Source: a phage | Length of the DNA stretch: 50,979 nucleotides | Sequence record: PZ445502.1 | Strand: one strand, 5' to 3' | Shown: positions 1 to 42,587 of the stretch, piece by piece | How the letters are laid out: each line of letters begins with the position of its first letter | Position numbering within the stretch: position 1 is the stretch's first letter | Program-made: the position numbers and the translations under genes | The notes under the pieces: generated by a model | What the model was told of the DNA's origin: nothing | The model's database searches: none | The model's input: only the letters and a program-made list of their open reading frames with translations

Positions 1-1569
1 ATGATCATATGGGAAGATTTGACGGCAGCGCAAAAGCGAGCCATTAAAGAAATCAGTGAGCATTCATTCGAAAAGATGATCAGAATCTGGTTCCAGTTAT
101 TGCAGGGGCAAAAATTCCAGAGCAACTGGCATTTTAGCTTATTGTGCAGTGAGGTAGAGAAGATCATCAATGGAGAGTCGCAGAATGTGATTTTCAATAT
201 TACGCCAGGTAGCGGCAAGACTGAGATTTTCTCGATCCACATGTCACCCTACGCGTCATTGAAAAGCCGGAAGGTGAGAAACCTTAACCTTTCGTTTAGT
301 GATGGACTTGTCCAGCAAAACAGCAACAGGATAAAGGAGATTATCGGTTCTCCTGAGTGGCAAGAGCTATGGCCAGGAAAACTGGCAAAGGCGAGTGCAA
401 AAGATCTCATAGTTACGGATGGCGGCAAGGTTAAATTGCAAGTTAACTCACGATCTATTGGCGGACAGGTAACGGGTTTGCGTGGCGGCTATATGGACGA
501 TGGTTTTACTGGTATGCTGGTTCTTGACGATCCAGACAAGCCGGATGATATGCTTTCTAAGGTCAAGCGTGAGGCGATCCACATGAGGTTAAAAAACACA
601 GTGCGATCGCGTCGAATGAAAGACACTACGCCGATTGTTATGGTGCAACAGCGACTACACGTTAATGATTCCACCTGGTTTATGCTTAATGGCGGGATGG
701 GTGGTATTGAGTTTAAAGTTGTGAGTATTCCGGCGCTGGTTACGAAAGAATACCGCGAAACGCTTCCTGATTGGTTGAAGCCTGAATTTGATCGTGATGT
801 TCTGTCAAGTAAGCCAGTGATGATAGATGGCGTTGCTCATTATTCATTTTGGCCTGCAAAGGAAAGCGCGGAGGAATTGCTTGCATTGCGGAATGCAGAT
901 CCTTACACGTTCGCCAGCCAATACCAACAACAACCAATCGCGCTTGGCGGCAACGTGTTTAAAACAGAGTGGTTCCAGTATTACGGCAGAGGCGAAAAAT
1001 GCGCACTTCCTAAACCGGATCGCTTTGAATACACATTTATTACTGGAGATACAGCACAGAAGGCCGGAGAGCTTAACGACTATTCAGTTTTTTGTTATTG
1101 GGGGATGTATAAAAATCGCGTTTACTTCATTGATGGCATTCGCGGCAAGTGGGAAGCGCCAGATCTTGAATTAAATTTTATTGCCTTCGTTAATCAGTGC
1201 TGGAAGCGCAATAAGGAGTGTGGCAGCTTGCGACGTATTCACATTGAGGATAAGGCCAGCGGCACGGGTTTGATTCAGGGGGCCAAAAAGAAGATCCCGA
1301 TTGATATAAATCCCGTTCAGCGAAGCAATGACAAGGTAACGCGAGCAATGGACGCCGCGCCAGTAATGAGGGCCGGACGTGTGGCACTGCCAGAAAATCA
1401 TCCCATGCTGCCTGAGATACTGGCAGAGGTTGCAGCATTCACTTTTGATGATTCTCATCCCCATGATGATATTGTCGATAATATAGTTGATGCTGTTAAC
1501 GTCGAAATGAATTTGGCAGACGATCCGGTAGCAAGGATGAAAAAGCTGGCTGGTCTACGCAATAAATAG
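1..1569 (+). CDS. terL: terminase large subunit
   Basis: 522 aa; Walker A-like ITPGSGKTE and Walker B-like MLVLDDPDKPDD; first gene of the structural module; ATG at window position 1. Confidence 0.85.
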   Translation: MIIWEDLTAAQKRAIKEISEHSFEKMIRIWFQLLQGQKFQSNWHFSLLCSEVEKIINGESQNVIFNITPGSGKTEIFSIHMSPYASLKSRKVRNLNLSFSDGLVQQNSNRIKEIIGSPEWQELWPGKLAKASAKDLIVTDGGKVKLQVNSRSIGGQVTGLRGGYMDDGFTGMLVLDDPDKPDDMLSKVKREAIHMRLKNTVRSRRMKDTTPIVMVQQRLHVNDSTWFMLNGGMGGIEFKVVSIPALVTKEYRETLPDWLKPEFDRDVLSSKPVMIDGVAHYSFWPAKESAEELLALRNADPYTFASQYQQQPIALGGNVFKTEWFQYYGRGEKCALPKPDRFEYTFITGDTAQKAGELNDYSVFCYWGMYKNRVYFIDGIRGKWEAPDLELNFIAFVNQCWKRNKECGSLRRIHIEDKASGTGLIQGAKKKIPIDINPVQRSNDKVTRAMDAAPVMRAGRVALPENHPMLPEILAEVAAFTFDDSHPHDDIVDNIVDAVNVEMNLADDPVARMKKLAGLRNK

Positions 1570-26588: not shown

Positions 26589-27518
26589 TTATAGCAGTGA
26601 TTCAGGCTTGTAGATTTTTCTTTCTACGCCCTGTTTAAAATTATCGTTAACAGGCATCATTATGTCAAGCCCTCTTTCCTCTGCCGCGATTATCACATCA
26701 CGATCATCTTTCCGGCAGACTACGCGCATTCTTCTTTCTCCTTTATATCTATGCGCAACCATTTCAAGATTTGAAGGAGTAAAACAGGCCCACACCTCTT
26801 GACCAGTTGATAAATGAACATGCTGAGAATCAACCCAATCAAGGCACAAATAGATCGTCTTATCTGTGCTACCTGTTTTAACAACAGATCCGCGCGTGTA
26901 GTCGCGAGCTAAAAACCAATCCTTTCCATCCTCATCAATGAAAAGCACGTTACACATTTCATCATCCAGCCCGTCATCATGCACCAGGTGACAAGGTAGC
27001 GCGTGAATGTATCGACCATCCTTGACGCCGCAATCATAATGACAATCTTCCGGCGGATATATCCCCTCATAAACGCTTAAAGGTGTGCGATCGAATTTTA
27101 ATGTTTTTGCCATCACTTTTTCGCAACATTCATGACTTGCCTGTTTCCCGAACGAGTAACCAGAAGAACGCGAAGCGCGTTTGTTTGCTCTGATCCTGTA
27201 ATCTTGTGGCACTTTTCCGAGGAATCGGCCCAAAATGTTGATGGCCTCGCTGTAAGGTTCGCCAGTTAATTTCATTAACCAACCGATCCCCGTGTCGTTG
27301 CCGCATACGTTGCAGATCGCGCCGCCGTCGCCCTCTTCATTTAGCTTATCAGTCCACCTAAAACGATCCTTACCGCCGCAGTGTGGGCAAGGTTGATGCT
27401 TTTTGTTGAAAACATCGCTATGCAGTCCGCAAATGCTTTGTAGTGCTTCACGCCATAACCCCTTCATATATGGCAAAACATCTTCTTTCTGATAGGTCAT
27501 AAAGTTTTCAGTATTCAT
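26589..27518 (-). CDS. DNA primase-like protein
   Basis: about 309 aa from ATG 27518 with GAGGT SD; zinc-ribbon CPHCGG...CNVCG; adjacent to the helicase region. Confidence 0.5.
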   Translation of the reverse strand: MNTENFMTYQKEDVLPYMKGLWREALQSICGLHSDVFNKKHQPCPHCGGKDRFRWTDKLNEEGDGGAICNVCGNDTGIGWLMKLTGEPYSEAINILGRFLGKVPQDYRIRANKRASRSSGYSFGKQASHECCEKVMAKTLKFDRTPLSVYEGIYPPEDCHYDCGVKDGRYIHALPCHLVHDDGLDDEMCNVLFIDEDGKDWFLARDYTRGSVVKTGSTDKTIYLCLDWVDSQHVHLSTGQEVWACFTPSNLEMVAHRYKGERRMRVVCRKDDRDVIIAAEERGLDIMMPVNDNFKQGVERKIYKPESLL

Positions 27519-27573
27519 GGCAAACCTCAATAAAAAAGCCCAGCAAATATTATCATTTCGCTGAGCCTTATCA

Positions 27574-28050
27574 TTAGCTATTTGTGCTGTTATCACCTTT
27601 GTAGAATCGTCCGCCTGGTTCGTAGTCTGAATTCTTGACTACGCGCAACATTTCGTATTTGTCGCAACGGGTAGTAAGAGGCTTACCGTTAGAATCAAAC
27701 CGCAGATCTGGACGACAAAATGATGCGCGGTATCCTTTGCATCCATTATATTTGTAGTCGTTATGCACCTTTTGTGCTCCAGCGGCTGAAATCATACCAC
27801 GCTTTCGCCATTGGTTAACGACTTGCTGAGATACGCGTAGACGTCGAGCCATAGCAGGAACACCGCCATAATACTCGATCAGAATATCCAAGCGAGATTT
27901 CAGGCTTGCTTTTACCTCATCTCGCAGGATAAGAAATCCGGTTCGGTGTTTTCGTGGCTTTTTGTCTTTACCTCGTCGCGTTCCGTTGTTACCGTTAATA
28001 GTGCGCTTGTCGATCTCACCCGTAGACACCGCAATTCGTGCATCTTTCAT
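27574..28050 (-). CDS. putative HTH DNA-binding protein
   Basis: 158 aa; helix-turn-helix-like segment VPAMARRLRVSQQVVNQWRKRG; GAGGTGA SD. Confidence 0.4.
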   Translation of the reverse strand: MKDARIAVSTGEIDKRTINGNNGTRRGKDKKPRKHRTGFLILRDEVKASLKSRLDILIEYYGGVPAMARRLRVSQQVVNQWRKRGMISAAGAQKVHNDYKYNGCKGYRASFCRPDLRFDSNGKPLTTRCDKYEMLRVVKNSDYEPGGRFYKGDNSTNS

Positions 28051-28137: not shown

Positions 28138-30135
28138 ATGATTCCAAATATCGAAAAACAAATATCAGCGTTAGGCGAGGCAGTAATAAAAAGCATCCAA
28201 GAGCGATTCACGGTTGGCAATATAGTGCCTTATCCTTATCAGTGCGTTGCGTATGCCGAGATCGCAAAGCGCATGAAAAACTATGAGCATCCTTTCTTTG
28301 TTAAGGCTTCTGTGTCGGCTGGCAAAACATTGATGTTTGCGATGGTTGCGGCGCAATGCCGAAAAATGGGATTGAAAATGATGGTCCTTGCTCGCCAGGC
28401 TGAAATTGTTGATCAGGATTCGGAAGAGATCAGCAATCTTGGAGTGCCAAACTCAATCTATTGCGCCGGACTGAAAACAAAAAGCGCATACTTTCCGATC
28501 GTGGTCGGTTCTGAGGGCACTGTAGTAAACGGATTGTTTAAGTCGTTAGGTGATTATGTTCCGCACGTTATCGGTATTGATGAATGTCACCAGGTGGATT
28601 GGGAGGATCTCGCGGACGCGATAGAAAATAATGAATCTTACCAGCAGATGACCACTAAGAAGGATTTGCCAGTGCTGATTGGAGAAGAACAGCAATTTGA
28701 TTCCAATGGCGATCCAATGTTCGGAACAGGACGCACACAGTACACCGTAATAATCATGGAAATGATGCGCAGGTGTCGCGAGGCATACGGGCACGAATTG
28801 CGAATATTCGGTATGACTGGATCTGAATTTCGCGGCGTGGTTCCAATACTGGTTGAAGATAAGAACAAAAAGGGATTCTGGCGTGAGCAGGTGACTAACA
28901 TAGACACAAACTACTTAATCAAATTCGGTTCGGTAGTGCCAACAAACTTCGGCGACGTAGGCGACCTGGGTTATGACCTTTCAGAGTTCGAAGCCAGTAG
29001 CGAGGATGGCGTTTCAGACTTTGACGCTAAAACATTGCGCAAGATGGAAGAAAAGATCCATCAAGACGCAACAATGACACAGAAAATCATGGCTAAAGTC
29101 CATGAGATATGCAAAGACAGGAACGGAGTTTTAGTTACATGCGCAGGGGAAAGACACTGCAAGGAGGCCGCCGCCGCACTGCCGCCAGGCGTTGAATACA
29201 GGATCATAACTGGCAAGACTGGAGATAATCAGCGTAAAGAGTGGCTGAGGGAGGCATACGAGGGAAAAGTAAAATACATCTTCCAGGTACAGGCGCTTAC
29301 CACTGGCGTTAACGTTCCGTTTTGGGATACTTCGGTAATACTGAGAAAGATAGGATCTCTAACATTGCTTATCCAGCTTTTGGGGCGCGGTATGCGACTG
29401 CTTAAGCAATGGCACATTGAGCAGGGATTCAAGAAAAAAGACCATCTTGTATTGGATTTTGCCGGTACTATGGATGAGTTAGGGGATTTGTATTTCGATC
29501 CAATCCTTGAGCAAGCGCAATTCCAAAAGAGATTTACAAACGGGAAAGAGCCTAAGACTTGTCCGATATGTGGAACGCTAAACAGCTTTTACGCTCGCCG
29601 ATGTATGCACGTAGACGATAACGGGAAGAGATGCGAGCATTTTTGGACTTACAGAATTTGCGAGGACCAGGTAGATCCGAGAACGAAAAAGATAATCAAG
29701 CGCGGTTGCGGAACAAAAAACGACGTAGTGGCGAGAGTATGCCGTTGTTGCGATATTTCTCTTGTCGATCCTAACGAGAAGTTAAGCGGTAAGCACTACA
29801 CCAAAAACGATTGGTGCAACGTTAAATCTTTCCGCGTTGATATGACGAAAAACCAGAAAGGAATTATTTTTTGCTATGAGCTTGAGGCCAACGGCGACAC
29901 GTTCAAGGCATACGAAAGATTTTTCCCTGAGTCAGAAAGCAACATTTGCAGGACGATATGGAGAAAAATAGCATTGCAGCACATACCGGATCGCAAGATT
30001 GCTGGTATGGTGGCGAGCTATAGAAATGCGCGTAAAATAATGTCATACGCTCATCACATCATGCCGCCTGTACGAGTAACGCATCGCAAAAACGGCAAAG
30101 GTGAGGATAACATTGCAAAACGGGAGTTTGTTTAA
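28138..30135 (+). CDS. SF2 DNA helicase with C-terminal Cys-rich zinc-binding region
   Basis: 665 aa; Walker A SAGKT; DECH box; multiple CxxC pairs near the C-terminus. Confidence 0.75.
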   Translation: MIPNIEKQISALGEAVIKSIQERFTVGNIVPYPYQCVAYAEIAKRMKNYEHPFFVKASVSAGKTLMFAMVAAQCRKMGLKMMVLARQAEIVDQDSEEISNLGVPNSIYCAGLKTKSAYFPIVVGSEGTVVNGLFKSLGDYVPHVIGIDECHQVDWEDLADAIENNESYQQMTTKKDLPVLIGEEQQFDSNGDPMFGTGRTQYTVIIMEMMRRCREAYGHELRIFGMTGSEFRGVVPILVEDKNKKGFWREQVTNIDTNYLIKFGSVVPTNFGDVGDLGYDLSEFEASSEDGVSDFDAKTLRKMEEKIHQDATMTQKIMAKVHEICKDRNGVLVTCAGERHCKEAAAALPPGVEYRIITGKTGDNQRKEWLREAYEGKVKYIFQVQALTTGVNVPFWDTSVILRKIGSLTLLIQLLGRGMRLLKQWHIEQGFKKKDHLVLDFAGTMDELGDLYFDPILEQAQFQKRFTNGKEPKTCPICGTLNSFYARRCMHVDDNGKRCEHFWTYRICEDQVDPRTKKIIKRGCGTKNDVVARVCRCCDISLVDPNEKLSGKHYTKNDWCNVKSFRVDMTKNQKGIIFCYELEANGDTFKAYERFFPESESNICRTIWRKIALQHIPDRKIAGMVASYRNARKIMSYAHHIMPPVRVTHRKNGKGEDNIAKREFV

Positions 30136-31603: not shown

Positions 31604-31643
31604 CACTTTTTGTTAAAACGCCCGGCCTAGTGTCGGGCATAAT
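31599..31643 (+). promoter_or_regulatory. motif-class promoter (motif, 22 nt, CATAAT)
   Basis: GCCCGGC...GTCGGGC inverted repeat in the spacer. Confidence 0.5.
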
Positions 31644-31855: not shown

Positions 31856-32087
31856 GCAAGGAAGAGATGCGGTATGGAATCACGCTAAAGAATGCGGTAT
31901 TGCCGACGACATAAAGAAGATCGCGCAATACTTTGATATTGCAGATGTGAGCATAATTAGCGGCGACAAGATGACTTTCCTCAAGGAAAGGCCGCGAAAA
32001 ATGGTAAGAGTTCCAGCAGTTCCAACAAAAATTGATTTCAAAGAGGCAATGGCTAAAATCCGAGAGCCTCGCAAATATTATAAATGA
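31845..32087 (+). CDS. hypothetical protein
   Basis: 80 aa from ATG 31845 with GGAGG upstream. Confidence 0.4.
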   Translation: MKVEQGRDAVWNHAKECGIADDIKKIAQYFDIADVSIISGDKMTFLKERPRKMVRVPAVPTKIDFKEAMAKIREPRKYYK

Positions 32088-32181
32088 GGATAGTTATCAT
32101 GTGGCGCTTGTTTGTTCTACCGTTACCCGTTATCATCGCTGTTACAGTTATGTACCATATAGTGATGAGATAGGTAGCAGA

Positions 32182-33297
32182 ATGAAAAATGTAAAAATTA
32201 CAGATGAGCAATTCAAGATCGAACGGGCGGCGGGTAAGACATATAAACAGATCGCTCAAGAGTACGGAATGAATGTGAGAAGCGTCGAGCGTCGCGCGGC
32301 GCGTCTTGCAAAGCAAGGCCAGGTATCCACCATTGGAGCGCCTGGTTTTGGCGTTCATGGTGAGTCAGTAATGACTGACAAAGAAGGCAACATAATCCTA
32401 AAGTGGACTAAAACCAGCAAGGATAAAGAGCAATTAGAAGCATTAATGCGCGCAGCAATGGAGGCATTTAGCGAGGAAGTTCCGCGATTAGATCCGGTCC
32501 CATTACAGGAGCGCGACTATAACGAAACGCTTTCCTTGTATCCGATCTTTGACATGCACTTAGGCGCTATGGCCCATAAGCACGAATGCGGCGAAAATTG
32601 GGATACTGCCACGGCAGAGCGCGTTATGAATAACTTTATCGACTATGCTTTAATGTGCGCACCGGATAGCGAAAAGGCTGTCATCCTGATTGGTGGCGAT
32701 ATGCTGCATAGCGACGGCCTGGAGGCGGTTACACCTGCAAGCGGTCACGTACTGGATCAAGATAGTCGATATGCAAAATTGGTTTACGTTGCCATCCGTG
32801 CAATGCGACGCGCAATCAATAAAATGTTGTTAAAGCATAAACATGTTGAAGTCCAGATCGTAGAGGGCAATCATGACCAATCAGGAATGATTTGGCTACG
32901 CGCAGCAATGGCGGCAGCATATGAAAACGATCCGCGCGTTTACGTTGATGTTTCCCCTCGCGTTGTGCACCACACGCAATACGGAAAAACTTTCCTTGCG
33001 TACCATCACGGGCACACAGTGCGTAAACCGGAGACTTTGCTAATGATGTGCGCGTCAGATTGGCGGGAGGACTTCGGAAACTCAAAAACGATGTATGCGC
33101 ACGTAGGGCACTGGCATCACCAGACCGTGACAGAAACGTCGCTTGGCATCGTTGAGGTGCATAGCACCCTGGCTGCAAAAGACGCATACGCCGCGCGAGG
33201 TGGCTGGAGATCTCGACGCCGTGCGGCGGTTATCATTTACGACAAAGAGCATGGAGAAGTGGGGCGATTTGTTCACTATCCAGAAATGATGAATTGA
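32182..33297 (+). CDS. metallophosphoesterase (calcineurin-like) with N-terminal HTH-like segment
   Basis: GDMLHSDG, GNHDQSG and GHWHH metal-site-like motifs; N-terminal 70 aa basic/HTH-like. Confidence 0.5.
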   Translation: MKNVKITDEQFKIERAAGKTYKQIAQEYGMNVRSVERRAARLAKQGQVSTIGAPGFGVHGESVMTDKEGNIILKWTKTSKDKEQLEALMRAAMEAFSEEVPRLDPVPLQERDYNETLSLYPIFDMHLGAMAHKHECGENWDTATAERVMNNFIDYALMCAPDSEKAVILIGGDMLHSDGLEAVTPASGHVLDQDSRYAKLVYVAIRAMRRAINKMLLKHKHVEVQIVEGNHDQSGMIWLRAAMAAAYENDPRVYVDVSPRVVHHTQYGKTFLAYHHGHTVRKPETLLMMCASDWREDFGNSKTMYAHVGHWHHQTVTETSLGIVEVHSTLAAKDAYAARGGWRSRRRAAVIIYDKEHGEVGRFVHYPEMMN

Positions 33298-34862: not shown

Positions 34863-35052
34863 CCATACGCTTTACTGTAACCAATAACACACCATCATCA
34901 TTGCATAAAACGTGTTCATTGGTGCTAAAAGCGCGCATATCTGAATAAAGCAGCGTAAGTAACGCATGAATAAAATCCTCATGTGATATTGAATTTACGG
35001 CGCAGTGCTTCAAGATCTTGTCTATTAGCTTTTGCCTGGAACAATTCATCAT
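34858..35052 (-). CDS. hypothetical protein (uncertain; overlaps the upstream gene)
   Basis: 64-aa ORF whose stop TAG lies inside the motif like other genes; overlaps 34979..35374 by 74 nt. Confidence 0.25.
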   Translation of the reverse strand: MMNCSRQKLIDKILKHCAVNSISHEDFIHALLTLLYSDMRAFSTNEHVLCNDDGVLLVTVKRME

Positions 35053-35374
35053 CGCCCATCTCCCCTATTCTAGCCATATCCCTGATCCAGTCGTTGCGCA
35101 TACCATCCAGGCTATACAATTCGAATCCGAAAGGCCGCTTTGACGATCCTTTGGACCAGTATTTTCCGCAGACTCCATCTATATAACCAGCCGTCATCAT
35201 TCTTGCGCAAAATTCCTTAGATGCAAGGCTGGCGAACATTCGCGGCGTAAGTCCGGCGGCCCGTGCGAGCCGCTCACATTCTCTATGCTGATAGATAAAT
35301 TTGGCTATGTGCTGCCTGTTAAACCAATCGTATGACTCACACCATTTATACAGATCAAGCAAAAACATAATCAT
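34979..35374 (-). CDS. hypothetical protein
   Basis: 131 aa; ATGA-type coupling to the upstream NTPase gene. Confidence 0.45.
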   Translation of the reverse strand: MIMFLLDLYKWCESYDWFNRQHIAKFIYQHRECERLARAAGLTPRMFASLASKEFCARMMTAGYIDGVCGKYWSKGSSKRPFGFELYSLDGMRNDWIRDMARIGEMGDDELFQAKANRQDLEALRRKFNIT

Positions 35375-36951
35375 CCCAGCAGTATTGGATTGACAAAAAT
35401 AACACCATTAATCACACAAACATAATTTCTTTCTTCCAGCATTGGCAGTAAGTGCCCTTCTATCCTTTTCATTACGCCAGCCTGACCAACGAAAGGTTTT
35501 ACCTTTCTCGCTGATTCGTACAGGGCGCGAATATTCAGGATCCCTTTGTTAGCCTTGCCGTGCCTCGTGATCAATTCAATCAATTTACCCATTTCAGCAT
35601 CATCACCAGCATAACCAGAAGCATTGGCGGCGCTAATGTATGTTTTGCTCAATTCCTGAAACATGATCAACGCCTCTTGCATTGTTTCCACGTCGATCTC
35701 TTTCGACTTCTGCGGGTATCCGGCAGGATTAAACCAGTTACGGATAACATGCAGGACGGAAGCAAGCCTGATCACCTGTTTATCCATTTTACCCAGCGCA
35801 CCGCGTAACATTGTATGAGAATACTTTCCTCCGTCTGCAAGATGCGGTTCCATATCCTGGCGAGCAATGTTGAGCACTCGCATAGCTGAACGGCTTATTT
35901 TCAGCGATATATTTGATTCGCTCATGATGTTATGCACCAATTGATAATATTGGGCTTTCAATTCAGAATCCACCGCCTCATAGGTAGAATCACCATTTTC
36001 ATCAATGAATGAGCGACGGCCTAAGAATGATTCCTCGCGGACCAACAAAAAACGCTCACTAACACCGATGCCTCGCGAACCAGCGTCCATGATTCCGCTT
36101 ATCGTTTCATCCTGGGCTATAACGCTCATACATCCAAGCGCGCGAAAACTCATATTATTGTCAGCATTAGCACGGGCAATTGATACGTGACCATTATCCC
36201 ACGCCTTAAGCACTAACTCACTGTTAGTCTTCCTTTCGCTATTTGCATAGGTCAAACCTAACAGACTGTTAATACTTGTTGCTTCATCAGAAATTACGGC
36301 AAAGTTACCTTGCTTGTTGTTGATTTTCGCCAAGCCTTCTGGAGTTGTATCTGAAACAGGAAAAGTTATATCACACATTTTTTCCAGCTTTTCCTCCAGA
36401 TCCTCTTTTTCCTGGTATAGAGATTCCATATCAGCGCCGGATCTTTCGCTTTTCATCTCCTTTGCAAGACCTGCCAGCTTTGCCTGTATTTTCTTTCTTT
36501 CCTTGCGGCGTTGCTCGTTGATCTTCTCAACTTCCGCAATCATCGGAGCAATAGCCATGCTGTTGATCGCAGATTTACCAGTTGACGGCGGCTGGCTTGT
36601 AACGACGTAAAGCGCAGTCGGCTGATCGGTTCCGTGATAGTCAACCGTAAAGCGTCCAAGCATAGCGGCAGAAATGCAGCCGATAAAGTGCATGTAAGCC
36701 GATGATTCAGGGAATTGAACGGATCGCGCAATGCTGCGTGATAACTTGCCGACAACATCAATATCATTACCAAGAGAAATAACGGGGTAGCGATCGTGAC
36801 CGCTATTCACATCCTTTACGTCGCCCCAAAAGCTGGACGACTGGCGATAGCCGTTAGCCTGAATTGATACGCGAACTGGTGAAAGGTTCTGGCTTTCAGC
36901 CATAGCGATTATTTGCTGTGGAGTTAATTTGTTCGTTTCTAATGAAAACAT
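35371..36951 (-). CDS. P-loop NTPase of unknown function
   Basis: 526 aa; Walker A SQPPSTGKSA and Walker B-like FAVISDEAT; AAGGAG SD; largest early gene. Confidence 0.55.
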   Translation of the reverse strand: MFSLETNKLTPQQIIAMAESQNLSPVRVSIQANGYRQSSSFWGDVKDVNSGHDRYPVISLGNDIDVVGKLSRSIARSVQFPESSAYMHFIGCISAAMLGRFTVDYHGTDQPTALYVVTSQPPSTGKSAINSMAIAPMIAEVEKINEQRRKERKKIQAKLAGLAKEMKSERSGADMESLYQEKEDLEEKLEKMCDITFPVSDTTPEGLAKINNKQGNFAVISDEATSINSLLGLTYANSERKTNSELVLKAWDNGHVSIARANADNNMSFRALGCMSVIAQDETISGIMDAGSRGIGVSERFLLVREESFLGRRSFIDENGDSTYEAVDSELKAQYYQLVHNIMSESNISLKISRSAMRVLNIARQDMEPHLADGGKYSHTMLRGALGKMDKQVIRLASVLHVIRNWFNPAGYPQKSKEIDVETMQEALIMFQELSKTYISAANASGYAGDDAEMGKLIELITRHGKANKGILNIRALYESARKVKPFVGQAGVMKRIEGHLLPMLEERNYVCVINGVIFVNPILLG

Positions 36952-36979
36952 TCGTTAGCTTCTCCTTTGTGGGCCGTAA

Positions 36980-37025
36980 ATTTTAACGGCCCAATACTAC
37001 CCCGTTTTGTCAAAAAGTGCTATTT
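36980..37025 (-). promoter_or_regulatory. motif-class promoter with TTGACA in the motif, 22 nt, TAAAAT
   Basis: minus strand AATAGCACTTTTTGACAAAAC; hairpin GGGCCGTTAAAATTTACGGCCC encloses the -10 box. Confidence 0.5.
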
Positions 37026-37241
37026 GATCCGCTCTATTGCAACCAGAAGTCGATCAGGATGGCGGTCGCTATAGCATTCCCCCATGATCCCATCCTTAAA
37101 CGTAAAGTAAAGAGCCTTATGATATGAAAAACCAATCAGCCAACCTACCGCCGTTTTTTTGATGGGCCTGACTATATCGCCAGGCTTGAAAGTCTTTGTG
37201 GTAGAATTCGTTACTTTGTAACGGTTTTCACTGTTTATCAC
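37020..37241 (-). CDS. hypothetical protein
   Basis: 73 aa; stop TAG inside the motif. Confidence 0.4.
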   Translation of the reverse strand: MINSENRYKVTNSTTKTFKPGDIVRPIKKTAVGWLIGFSYHKALYFTFKDGIMGECYSDRHPDRLLVAIERIK

Positions 37242-37624
37242 AGATATTTACCCTCAAAAAGATAACAGCCGCCAGCAGAGAATCCGACCTCTTCACGGTA
37301 CAGGTTCCAGCGGTCGCCGCACTCATCAAAAACATAACCCGCAACGCTTCCAAGCGGTCGCCCTTTCTCGATCTGGTATCGCTTTCCCTGCTTAAAGTGC
37401 TTTTTGCACGGCATGTTATGATCTACAAACGTGCAAAGAACGGTTTTTGTGTTAATGACGCGGTAATCATCTCGGTTTGCTGGAAGCCAGCGGCTACCCT
37501 TAACAAGCGTCTTAACCTGGAATTCTTCCACCTCGATCACATCATTACTTCCTGCAATCTTCTGATAAACCGTTTTAAATCGGCCTTTCATCAATACGTT
37601 GGTTTCATTACAGATAACATTCAT
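37238..37624 (-). CDS. hypothetical protein
   Basis: 128 aa; overlaps the downstream start by 4 nt. Confidence 0.4.
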   Translation of the reverse strand: MNVICNETNVLMKGRFKTVYQKIAGSNDVIEVEEFQVKTLVKGSRWLPANRDDYRVINTKTVLCTFVDHNMPCKKHFKQGKRYQIEKGRPLGSVAGYVFDECGDRWNLYREEVGFSAGGCYLFEGKYL

Positions 37625-37652: not shown

Positions 37653-37699
37653 GATTATGCCAGGTTTTTACACCTGGCTTTTAACAAAAAGTGCTATTT
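37653..37699 (-). promoter_or_regulatory. motif-class promoter (motif, 22 nt, CATAAT)
   Basis: GCCAGGT...ACCTGGC inverted repeat abutting the -10 box. Confidence 0.5.
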
Positions 37700-42547: not shown

Positions 42548-42587
42548 CACTTTTTGTTAAAACGCCAGGCGCGAAGCCTGGCATAAT
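42543..42587 (+). promoter_or_regulatory. motif-class promoter (motif, 22 nt, CATAAT)
   Basis: GCCAGGC...GCCTGGC inverted repeat abutting the -10 box. Confidence 0.5.

What the first reader, a model, noticed from the sequence alone, without database searches (positions are those of the whole stretch)
35371..36951. Large early P-loop NTPase of unknown function
At 526 aa this is by far the largest gene in the early minus-strand operon, with its own motif-class promoter that carries a true TTGACA. It has a Walker A (PPSTGKSA) and a Walker B-like hhhhDEAT (FAVISDEAT) but none of the helicase motifs seen in the 28138..30135 helicase. It is not obviously a replication protein. It could be a helicase loader or primase-associated ATPase, or a host-takeover or anti-defence ATPase.
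Basis: partly seen in the sequence, partly recalled or inferred. Interest (0 to 1): 0.6.

Follow-up and report, generated by a model that had tools for sequence, protein, structure and literature searches.

The report
MCM-like replicative helicase of T1-like phage
This gene encodes the phage's own ring-type DNA helicase of the DUF3987 (MCM-related) family, a conserved replication protein already annotated in T1-like phages, so the finding is real but ordinary.

The parts
35371..36951 (-). CDS, 526 aa: DUF3987-family, MCM-like AAA+ (SF6) DNA helicase; orthologue of T1 gp9
   Evidence: ORF. Pfam DUF3987 at 152.9 bits against a cutoff of 27. PHROG 2373 'DNA helicase'. 58% identical to T1 ST9 over the full length. 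Model and fold searches.
36655..36951 (-). N-terminal all-helical region (aa 1-99). It is specific to this subfamily and has no OB fold or zinc domain.
   Evidence: The model's secondary structure shows only helices before residue 100. The Pfam match starts at residue 81.
35977..36654 (-). AAA+ ATPase core (aa 100-325)
36571..36594 (-). Walker A, 120-QPPSTGKS-127
   Evidence: Invariant in the 25-sequence alignment. K126 is invariant across 40 diverse members.
36379..36567 (-). Long antiparallel coiled-coil hairpin inserted after the Walker A helix (aa 129-191)
   Evidence: The model has helices 126-168 and 172-191 with pLDDT 84-95. Weak helical-hairpin Pfam hits. The DUF3987 profile covers this stretch, so the insert is family-wide.
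36283..36303 (-). Walker B, 217-FAVISDE-223
   Evidence: E223 is invariant. D222 is Ala in some relatives.
36142..36189 (-). Beta-hairpin just before the sensor-1 strand (aa 255-270) with invariant R260 at its tip; candidate DNA-binding pore loop, like a pre-sensor-1 hairpin
   Evidence: Strands 255-258 and 267-270 in the model. R260 is invariant across 40 members. The role is inferred.
36106..36123 (-). Sensor-1 strand, 277-VIAQDE-282
   Evidence: Strand 273-279. Q280 is invariant. The assignment is inferred from the order of AAA+ elements.
36049..36066 (-). 296-GVSERF-301: candidate arginine finger R300, resembling the MCM 'SRF' motif
   Evidence: G296, E299 and R300 are invariant across 40 members. 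The resemblance to MCM SRF is from general knowledge and the role is inferred.
35737..35967 (-). Helical lid domain (aa 329-405) with 382-LRGALGKMDK-391
   Evidence: Helices 329-405. K388 is invariant. R383, G384, G387, K388 and D390 are invariant among closer relatives.
35374..35691 (-). C-terminal helical hairpin plus winged-helix domain (aa 421-526)
37005..37024 (-). Copy of the family's intergenic repeat (AATAGCACTTTTTGACAAAA), carrying TTGACA at 37008..37013
   Evidence: The repeat is described for phage TLS in PMC11447400.
36980..36985 (-). -10-like hexamer TAAAAT at the class-specific distance of 19 nt after the repeat
   Evidence: 15 of 18 copies have such a hexamer at offset 18-20 against a 6% background.
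36970..36993 (-). Inverted repeat (T)GGGCCGT-N8-ACGGCCC(A) enclosing the -10 hexamer
   Evidence: fold -15.6 kcal/mol, z -4.0. Relatives keep a stem here with different sequences.
36962..36967 (-). Shine-Dalgarno AAGGAG
34979..35374 (-). 131-aa ORF of unknown function ('YdbL' in deposited records). Its ATG overlaps the helicase stop codon (ATGA). Candidate accessory factor.
   Evidence: junction. Found immediately downstream in 80 of 80 related loci, median gap 7 nt. PHROG 2794 is of unknown function. No Pfam or PADLOC hit.
26589..27596 (-). Stand-alone primase with a T7-gp4-type zinc ribbon; inferred partner of the helicase
   Evidence: Pfam Zn_Ribbon_Prim, E 4.9e-15. It matches only positions 6-316 of the 667-position primase PHROG 510. 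It lies about 8.4 kb downstream on the same strand in 67 of 80 related loci.

Best explanation
The gene encodes the phage's own replicative DNA helicase, a stand-alone member of the DUF3987 family of MCM-related AAA+ (superfamily 6) helicases.

Proposed mechanism:
- It is expressed from one of the repeat-class promoters that mark the non-structural genes.
- The 58-kDa protein assembles into a ring, probably a hexamer.
- ATP binds at subunit interfaces and is hydrolysed there. Walker A K126 and Walker B E223 act in cis, and R300 of the 'SERF' motif acts as the arginine finger from the neighbouring subunit.
- The ring translocates on single-stranded DNA using the basic beta-hairpin that carries invariant R260.
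- By analogy with the one characterised family member, it moves 5'->3' on the lagging-strand template.
- There it would work with the phage's separately encoded, helicase-less primase (26589..27596) and the phage SSB (22942..23445). Host DNA polymerase III would do the synthesis, because the phage encodes no polymerase.
- The C-terminal winged helix may bind the origin or a partner protein.

Shown here: family membership, fold, motif conservation, gene content of the genome, conserved synteny, and primase fusions in relatives.

Inferred: ring assembly, polarity, the role assigned to each residue, the partnership with the primase, and use of host Pol III.
For: Family membership: Pfam DUF3987 E 1.7e-44 over residues 81-430. 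PHROG 2373 'DNA helicase' E 2.6e-244 over the full length.

Motifs: across 40 relatives of 22-71% identity the invariant residues are K126, G215, E223, R260, Q280, G296, E299, R300, E306 and K388.

Fusions in relatives (Rosetta-stone evidence):
- A DnaG CHC2 zinc-ribbon protein whose C-terminal 465 aa are 34% identical to residues 62-522.
- DnaB N-terminal domain + DUF3987, PriCT-2 + DUF3987 (28% identical over residues 66-519), and NrS-1 polymerase HBD + DUF3987.
- Many primase or PrimPol fusions among viral structural matches.

Literature:
- DUF3987 proteins were linked to MCM by profile-profile search. They carry a C-terminal wHTH, are associated with primases, and were predicted to be phage replicative helicases.
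- N4 dns is a DUF3987-AEP fusion essential for replication (PMC4889955).
- The PriCT-DUF3987 protein AgaPH unwinds DNA 5'->3', depends on ATP or dATP, and is inactivated by Walker A or B mutations (PMC11724360).

Genome logic: the window has a primase that lacks the helicase half of its family profile. It also has an SSB, Erf, an exonuclease VIII homologue and an SF2 helicase. No DNA polymerase, DnaB-type helicase or loader was found among the 20 non-structural ORFs scanned, which include every large non-structural ORF in the window.

Conservation: homologues occur in 925 phage records, including T1 gp9 and TLS. Counts per host genus nearly match those of the primase. Synteny holds in 80 of 80 loci.

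A 36%-identical relative on an unrelated 78-kb contig heads a module of SF2 helicase, DUF3799 nuclease, AAA_24 and SSB.
Against: - No member of the T1-like clade has been tested biochemically or genetically, as far as the searchable literature shows.
- The helicase gene is not next to the primase, as is usual for DUF3987. It lies 7.8 kb away, separated by the lysis cassette and a plus-strand block.
- The phage has a second (SF2) helicase next to the primase. A recent paper on phage TLS names that one, not this gene, as the replication helicase.
- Ring assembly and polarity were not tested.
- Similarity to MCM is visible only at the fold level. HMMER finds no MCM match.
- No origin-like repeats were found in or near the gene.
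Confidence: 0.75

Rival explanations
1. It is a genuine DUF3987 helicase or ATPase, but not the fork helicase. It acts as an origin-binding or origin-melting initiator, or in recombination-dependent replication or fork restart. The fork itself would be driven by host DnaB or by the phage SF2 helicase.
For: The C-terminal winged helix resembles those of ORC and Cdc6 initiators. The phage has a strong recombination module of exonuclease VIII, Erf, SSB and VRR-NUC. The SF2 helicase, not this gene, sits next to the primase, and the TLS paper favours that pair. In the distant relative, the gene sits next to recombination genes.
Confidence: 0.17
2. It is a host-takeover or anti-defence ATPase, one of the first reader's alternatives. 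It would be an early protein that remodels or inactivates a host complex and would not replicate phage DNA.
For: It lies in a block of small genes of unknown function. The neighbouring 128-aa gene is probably the SECphi27 protein that triggers Mokosh type I.
Against: It is a core gene in 925 phage records, 63-100% identical across the 80 related loci examined (58% to T1 gp9), with fixed synteny. That is unlike fast-evolving accessory anti-defence genes. All fusion partners in relatives are replication domains. It has no PADLOC match. The escape-mutant papers read do not mention it.
Confidence: 0.03
3. It is a helicase loader that recruits host DnaB, in the manner of lambda P, DnaC or IstB.
For: It is a P-loop ATPase in a phage without its own DnaB. 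AAA+ loaders exist.
Confidence: 0.03
4. It is a packaging (terminase-like) ATPase.
For: None beyond the Walker motifs.
Against: The terminase large subunit is the ORF at 1..1569, followed by the portal gene. This protein has no terminase match.
Confidence: 0.01

Closest known systems
T1 gp9 (ST9), the TLS 'yfiJ putative ATPase', and the 'DNA helicase' entries of Drexlerviridae in RefSeq
   Same: Orthologues. Identity is 58% to T1 gp9 over the full length, 80% to TLS, and 100% to swan01 and AV105. The position is the same: after the lysis cassette and followed by the ~131-aa gene.
   Different: Nothing substantial. None of these orthologues has been studied experimentally, as far as the searchable literature shows.
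AgaPH, the PriCT-DUF3987 helicase of a Seonamhaeicola mobile element (PMC11724360)
   Same: A DUF3987 ATPase followed by a small C-terminal domain, with conserved Walker A and B motifs. A protein with the same PriCT-2 + DUF3987 architecture is 28% identical over residues 66-519. AgaPH is an oligomeric 5'->3' DNA helicase that depends on ATP or dATP and binds its primase.
   Different: The phage protein lacks the PriCT domain and has its own helical N-terminus. Its primase is of the DnaG/T7-gp4 zinc-ribbon type rather than an AEP PrimPol, and is not adjacent. The activity of the phage protein is untested.
MCM helicases of archaea and eukaryotes
   Different: No sequence-level match. No N-terminal OB-fold or zinc domain. 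A 60-residue coiled-coil hairpin follows the Walker A helix. Polarity is probably 5'->3' if it resembles AgaPH, whereas MCM moves 3'->5'.
N4 dns protein (DUF3987 fused to an AEP primase)
   Same: Same helicase family in a lytic coliphage. Reported to be essential for N4 DNA replication (PMC4889955).
   Different: N4 dns carries a C-terminal AEP primase domain. In this phage the primase is a separate protein of the DnaG/T7 type.
P4 alpha and T7 gp4 primase-helicases
   Same: The same job: a primase plus a ring helicase, with a winged-helix origin binder in P4 alpha. The T1 record notes that the T1 primase is similar to P4-type alpha proteins. The window's primase matches only the primase half of a longer primase family profile, PHROG 510.
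   Different: Those helicases belong to SF3 (P4) or SF4 (T7) and are fused to the primase. Here the helicase is SF6 and is encoded 7.8 kb from the primase.
SCCmec Cch, the MCM-like helicase of a staphylococcal mobile element
   Different: A more distant fold match than MCM itself, and a different Pfam family.

Membership tests
DUF3987 (Pfam PF13148), SF6 helicase family | Match to the family profile above the curated threshold | tested here: met
   152.9 bits against a cutoff of 27. Residues 81-430 align to profile positions 3-350 of 364. All 25 aligned relatives match as well.
DUF3987 (Pfam PF13148), SF6 helicase family | Conserved Walker A lysine and Walker B glutamate | tested here: met
   K126 and E223 are invariant across 40 members of 22-71% identity. 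Positions are given.
DUF3987 (Pfam PF13148), SF6 helicase family | AAA+ fold related to MCM | tested here: met
DUF3987 (Pfam PF13148), SF6 helicase family | [quoted passage not shown] | tested here: met
DUF3987 (Pfam PF13148), SF6 helicase family | Gene fused to a primase gene or immediately downstream of one | tested here: not met
   The primase is at 26589..27596, 7.8 kb away. This holds in 67 of 80 related loci, median 8.4 kb. This feature is a frequent association, not a strict requirement of the family.
DUF3987 (Pfam PF13148), SF6 helicase family | Co-occurrence with a primase in the same genome, and primase fusions in relatives | tested here: met
   A primase is present. Per-genus record counts are similar: Klebsiella 420 vs 469, Escherichia 294 vs 316, Shigella 37 vs 37. 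Fusions to DnaG zinc-ribbon, DnaB-N, PriCT-2 and NrS-1 HBD domains.
DUF3987 (Pfam PF13148), SF6 helicase family | ATP-dependent DNA unwinding, 5'->3' in AgaPH | not testable with these tools
   Needs purified protein. Shown only for AgaPH.
DUF3987 (Pfam PF13148), SF6 helicase family | Ring oligomer | not tested
   Only a monomer model was made. AgaPH elutes as an oligomer.
MCM (Pfam PF00493) | Sequence-profile match to MCM | tested here: not met
   No MCM hit at E<=10 for any of 25 members. A profile search of PDB sequences finds no MCM. The published link needed profile-profile comparison.
MCM (Pfam PF00493) | N-terminal OB-fold and zinc-binding domain | tested here: not met
   Residues 1-99 are entirely helical in the model.
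MCM (Pfam PF00493) | AAA+ core with a pre-sensor-1 hairpin and an SRF-type arginine finger | tested here: inconclusive
   The fold match is strong. A hairpin at 255-270 and an invariant 'ERF' are present. Residue-level equivalence to MCM could not be checked, because no structural alignment output or MCM sequence was available.
SF2 helicases (as at 28138..30135) | DEAD/ResIII and Helicase_C domains | tested here: not met
   These domains are found in the 28138..30135 protein but not in this one.
Helicase loaders (DnaC/IstB, lambda P) | Profile match to a loader family | tested here: not met
   No such hit in Pfam, NCBIfam or PHROGs.
Terminase large subunit | Profile match to terminase families | tested here: not met
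   No hit for this protein. The terminase large subunit is the ORF at 1..1569.

The most novel reading that the evidence does not exclude
The DUF3987 protein could be both the origin-recognising initiator, through its C-terminal winged helix, and the fork helicase. An MCM-fold ring running 5'->3' would then take over the roles of DnaA, DnaC and DnaB and couple directly to the bacterial Pol III holoenzyme. The strictly co-linear, translationally coupled 131-aa protein would act as its loader or as an adaptor to the host replisome. That would make T1-like phages a simple system for studying how an MCM-like motor works with a bacterial replisome.
Probability: 0.25. Interest if true: 0.45.

Novelty: already known. 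Interest (0 to 1): 0.18.

Why it matters
For genome annotation it matters little. The gene is a conserved core replication gene of Drexlerviridae, already labelled 'DNA helicase' in RefSeq and PHROGs, and it belongs to a family whose helicase activity has been demonstrated.

Some gaps remain:
- No DUF3987 protein has a solved structure.
- No orthologue in a T1-like phage has been tested.
- The most recent descriptive paper on a T1-like phage discusses replication without mentioning this gene.
- It is still unknown how a polymerase-less phage connects an MCM-like helicase to host Pol III.

The promoter work done in passing may be more useful. It shows that the family's unexplained 21-nt intergenic repeat has a fixed geometric relation to a -10 hexamer and to a structured spacer.

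Tried and rejected
- Sequence searches of the PDB with the protein and with a 25-sequence profile gave only chance hits.
- NCBIfam gave nothing.
- A Pfam scan of all 25 aligned relatives at E<=10 gave no MCM or other AAA+ family. The MCM link therefore rests on the fold search and on the literature.
- The supplementary tables of Kazlauskas 2016, which might list T1 explicitly, are not held.
- Literature searches for defence-escape mutations in this gene found none. These covered SECphi27 and Drexlerviridae.
- A search for classical T1 genetics (DNA-negative amber mutants) found nothing usable. My recollection that T1 genes 1 and 2 are DNA-negative remains unverified and was not used.
- A locus search with the diverse 40-sequence alignment failed for lack of a conserved stretch. 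The 25-sequence alignment worked but returned only close relatives of 63-100% identity.
- A repeat search around the gene found no iteron-like origin.
- The generic sigma-70 scan did not call the promoter upstream of the gene.
- A full-text search for the repeat sequence found nothing. The repeat was then found described in the TLS paper.
- PADLOC gave no hits.
- The loader, terminase and anti-defence readings were rejected for the reasons given under the rival explanations.
Full report
**What the window is**

The region around the finding is 99.8% identical in DNA to Escherichia phages tunus and vB_Eco_SLUR29, and 99.4% identical to swan01, SECphi27 and others. Tunus is classified as Drexlerviridae, Tempevirinae, Warwickvirus. 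The window is therefore essentially a complete genome of a T1-like virulent coliphage.

**Check of the observation**

- The ORF at 35371..36951 on the minus strand is real: ATG start, 526 aa, 58.2 kDa.
- AAGGAG lies 10 nt upstream of the ATG.
- Walker A PPSTGKSA is residues 121-128, and FAVISDEAT is residues 217-225.
- It is the largest ORF in the minus-strand block. The next largest is a 259-aa DNA methyltransferase.

The 'motif-class promoter' is also real. The 20-mer AATAGCAYTTTTTGWYAAAA occurs 18 times in the window against 0.12 expected. The copy at 37005..37024 (-) is the only one with TTGACA in place of TTGTTA.

A -10-like hexamer lies a fixed 19 nt (sometimes 18) after the repeat in 15 of 18 copies, against a background rate of 6%. 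For this gene the hexamer is TAAAAT at 36980..36985. The TTGACA is therefore 22 nt from the -10, which is not canonical sigma-70 spacing, and the generic scan did not call the site. The TTGACA is also peculiar to this lineage. Relatives have TTGCTA, TTGTTA, TTGATA or TTGCCA there, and the Klebsiella-phage branch lacks the repeat at this position.

**What the protein is**

Database matches:
- Pfam DUF3987: E 1.7e-44, residues 81-430, nearly the whole profile.
- PHROG 2373 'DNA helicase': E 2.6e-244, end to end.
- NCBIfam: no model.
- PDB sequences: no match, even with a profile. The family has no solved structure.

Anatomy from the model:
- aa 1-99: helical N-terminal region.
- aa 100-325: AAA+ core, with a 60-residue antiparallel coiled-coil hairpin inserted after the Walker A helix.
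- aa 255-270: a beta-hairpin just before the sensor-1 strand.
- aa 329-405: helical lid.
- aa 421-526: helical hairpin and winged helix.

Conservation. Across 40 relatives of 22-71% identity the invariant residues are K126, G215, E223, R260, Q280, G296, E299, R300, E306 and K388. These fall on Walker A, Walker B, the tip of the hairpin, the end of the sensor-1 strand, a 'SERF' motif that resembles the MCM 'SRF' arginine finger, and the lid. Assigning each residue to a role is inference from the order of AAA+ elements. I could not obtain a residue-level structural alignment.

**Evidence from relatives**

- The family is large: 6205 cluster representatives at E<=1e-3 in the 1.84-billion-protein library.
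- Longer members carry replication domains at the N-terminus. These are a DnaG CHC2 zinc ribbon (P0150), the DnaB N-terminal domain (P0180), PriCT-2 (P0238) and the NrS-1 polymerase helix-bundle domain, HBD (P0260).
- P0150 is the most informative. Its last 465 residues are 34% identical to residues 62-522 of the window protein (E 5e-85). The subfamily to which this protein belongs is therefore found fused to a bacterial-type primase.
- P0238 has the architecture of the characterised helicase AgaPH and is 28% identical over residues 66-519.
- Viral structural neighbours include many primase or PrimPol fusions.
- A 36%-identical homologue on a 78-kb contig heads a module of SF2 helicase, DUF3799 nuclease, AAA_24 and SSB.

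**Published knowledge**

Kazlauskas et al. 2016 linked DUF3987 to MCM by profile-profile search. They noted its C-terminal wHTH and its association with AEP or DnaG primases. [quoted passage not shown]

A 2025 study purified a PriCT-DUF3987 protein, AgaPH. It is oligomeric, binds its primase, unwinds 5'-tailed and forked DNA with ATP or dATP, and is inactivated by Walker A or B mutations (PMC11724360).

**Genome logic**

Among the 20 non-structural ORFs scanned, which include every large non-structural ORF in the window, I found:
- a primase (26589..27596);
- an SF2 helicase (28138..30135);
- an SSB, Erf and an exonuclease VIII homologue;
- a phosphoesterase-type exonuclease;
- two methyltransferases, PNK and a dNMP kinase.

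None of these ORFs is a DNA polymerase, a DnaB-type helicase or a loader. The terminase is at 1..1569. The primase has the zinc ribbon of primase-helicases but covers only positions 6-316 of a 667-position family profile. Its helicase partner must therefore be supplied in trans. The TLS paper also states that T1 and TLS lack a polymerase and probably use host enzymes.

The DUF3987 gene is a core gene. It has 925 phage records, 911 of them full-length, including TLS (80% identical) and T1 gp9 (58% identical). Its per-genus counts track those of the primase.

In 80 related loci the local order is fixed:
- the 128-aa gene upstream in 79 of 80;
- the 131-aa gene immediately downstream in 80 of 80;
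- the endolysin about 1 kb away;
- the SF2 helicase about 5.7 kb away;
- the primase about 8.4 kb downstream.

**Best explanation and rivals**

The protein is most likely the phage's replicative ring helicase. It would work with the separate primase and SSB and with host Pol III (confidence about 0.75).

The main rival (about 0.17) keeps the helicase/ATPase identity but gives it a different job: initiator, or recombination or fork-restart helicase. The fork would then be driven by host DnaB or by the SF2 helicase that sits beside the primase.

The loader, anti-defence and packaging readings lack any positive evidence.

Points against the best explanation:
- the gene is 7.8 kb from the primase;
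- no T1-like orthologue has been tested;
- ring assembly and polarity are inferred;
- no origin-like repeats were found near the gene.

**Comparison with known systems, and novelty**

The protein meets the tested defining features of DUF3987: profile match, Walker residues, MCM-like fold, C-terminal winged helix, and co-occurrence with and fusion to primases. The exception is adjacency to the primase.

It is not a member of the MCM family proper. It has no sequence-level match to MCM and no OB-fold or zinc N-terminal domain.

Because identical proteins are deposited, RefSeq annotates the orthologues as DNA helicase, and the family is characterised, the finding is already known. What remains open is mechanistic: how an MCM-fold helicase couples to a bacterial replisome, what the winged helix binds, and what the coupled 131-aa protein does.

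**Side observations**

The repeat upstream of the gene is the 21-nt direct repeat aaATAGCACnnnTTGnTAAAA reported for phage TLS. The authors of that paper list its function as an open question. In this window:
- it sits at a fixed distance from a -10 hexamer;
- the 19-nt spacer or the -10 region usually contains a stable inverted repeat, with mean fold z-score -3.0 over 18 copies;
- the stem around the helicase gene's -10 is maintained with different sequences in related phages.

The only 128-aa ORF in the window (37238..37624) is probably the SECphi27 protein reported as the trigger of Mokosh type I.

Noticed in passing
window, 18 sites: 1565, 6191(-), 9941(-), 20719(-), 26499, 28061, 30550, 31599, 34843(-), 37005(-), 37679(-), 39877(-), 41181(-), 42543, 43006, 44344, 45522, 48326 (start coordinates): The 21-nt intergenic repeat of T1-like phages (AATAGCACTTTTTGTTAAAA) has a -10-like hexamer exactly 18-19 nt after its end in 15 of 18 copies, against a 6% background. 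That places TTGTTA 22 nt, or TTAAAA 19 nt, from the -10, which is longer than sigma-70 spacing. The TLS paper (PMC11447400) calls the repeat's function an open question. Strong copies mark the non-structural gene blocks; weak or antisense copies lie in the structural block. Many copies are followed by a CA-rich leader, CATCGAAACGAAAC.
   Followed up: partly
window, the 40 nt after each repeat copy, e.g. 37655..37674(-), 31623..31641(+), 42567..42585(+), 36970..36993(-): Most repeat-class promoters contain a stable inverted repeat. It lies either in the spacer, ending at the -10, or around the -10 hexamer. Mean fold z-score is -3.0 over 18 copies. The stem sequences differ between copies, so it is structure rather than a shared operator sequence that recurs.
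   Followed up: partly
L004, L008, L009, L013, L024, L029, L033, L041, L042, L044, L055: the ~80 nt upstream of the helicase start: The hairpin enclosing the -10 of the helicase promoter is kept in related phages with different stem sequences, for example GGGCCG/CGGCCC, GTTGCCC/GGGCAAC, GGTGCGG/CCGCATC and GTTCCGG/CCGGAAC. This looks like compensatory change. It was not tested formally with a covariation tool.
   Followed up: partly
window 37238..37624 (-): This is the only ORF of exactly 128 aa in the window (PHROG 2684, unknown function), and it is present upstream of the helicase in 79 of 80 related loci. It is probably the homologue of the 128-aa SECphi27 protein reported to trigger the Mokosh type I defence system (bioRxiv 10.1101/2022.08.27.505566). 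The identity of the two genes was not verified by sequence.
   Followed up: partly
window 34979..35374 (-): A 131-aa ORF ('YdbL' in deposited records; PHROG 2794, unknown function; no Pfam or PADLOC hit). Its ATG overlaps the helicase stop codon (ATGA). It follows the helicase in 80 of 80 related loci and in T1 (gp10). It is absent next to the 36%-identical homologue in L002. It is a candidate helicase accessory protein.
   Followed up: partly
phage records MG065685.1, MG065636.1, MG065640.1 and about 18 more: About 20 unannotated records named 'Campylobacter phage' (host C. jejuni) carry this helicase and the primase at 80-88% protein identity to this coliphage. They look like T1-like enterobacterial phages and may be mislabelled or contaminants.
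   Followed up: no
window 35374..35631 (-), aa 441-525; Klebsiella phage KL NC_049838.1 6230..6508: The C-terminal helical-hairpin and winged-helix module matches a separate PHROG of unknown function (7327, E 1.3e-37). It also matches an unannotated stretch of Klebsiella phage KL at 43% identity. The module therefore appears to occur independently of the ATPase.
   Followed up: no
window 32032..33297 (+): As listed by the ORF listing from a TTG start, the phosphoesterase-type 'DNA repair exonuclease' has an N-terminal extension. The extension gives weak sigma-70 region 4 and HTH hits (Pfam E 0.002-0.008, residues 66-97). The annotated tunus gene (1197 bp, 398 codons) is shorter than this 421-codon ORF, so the extension may not be translated.
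   Followed up: no
protein P0180 (666 aa, metagenomic): A DnaB N-terminal domain, the primase-interacting domain of SF4 helicases, is fused to a DUF3987 (SF6) motor. This is a hybrid helicase architecture.
   Followed up: no
alignment A1, column of D222: The Walker B aspartate (D222) is alanine in several relatives, including P0101, P0104 and P0115-P0117, while the following glutamate (E223) is invariant.
   Followed up: no
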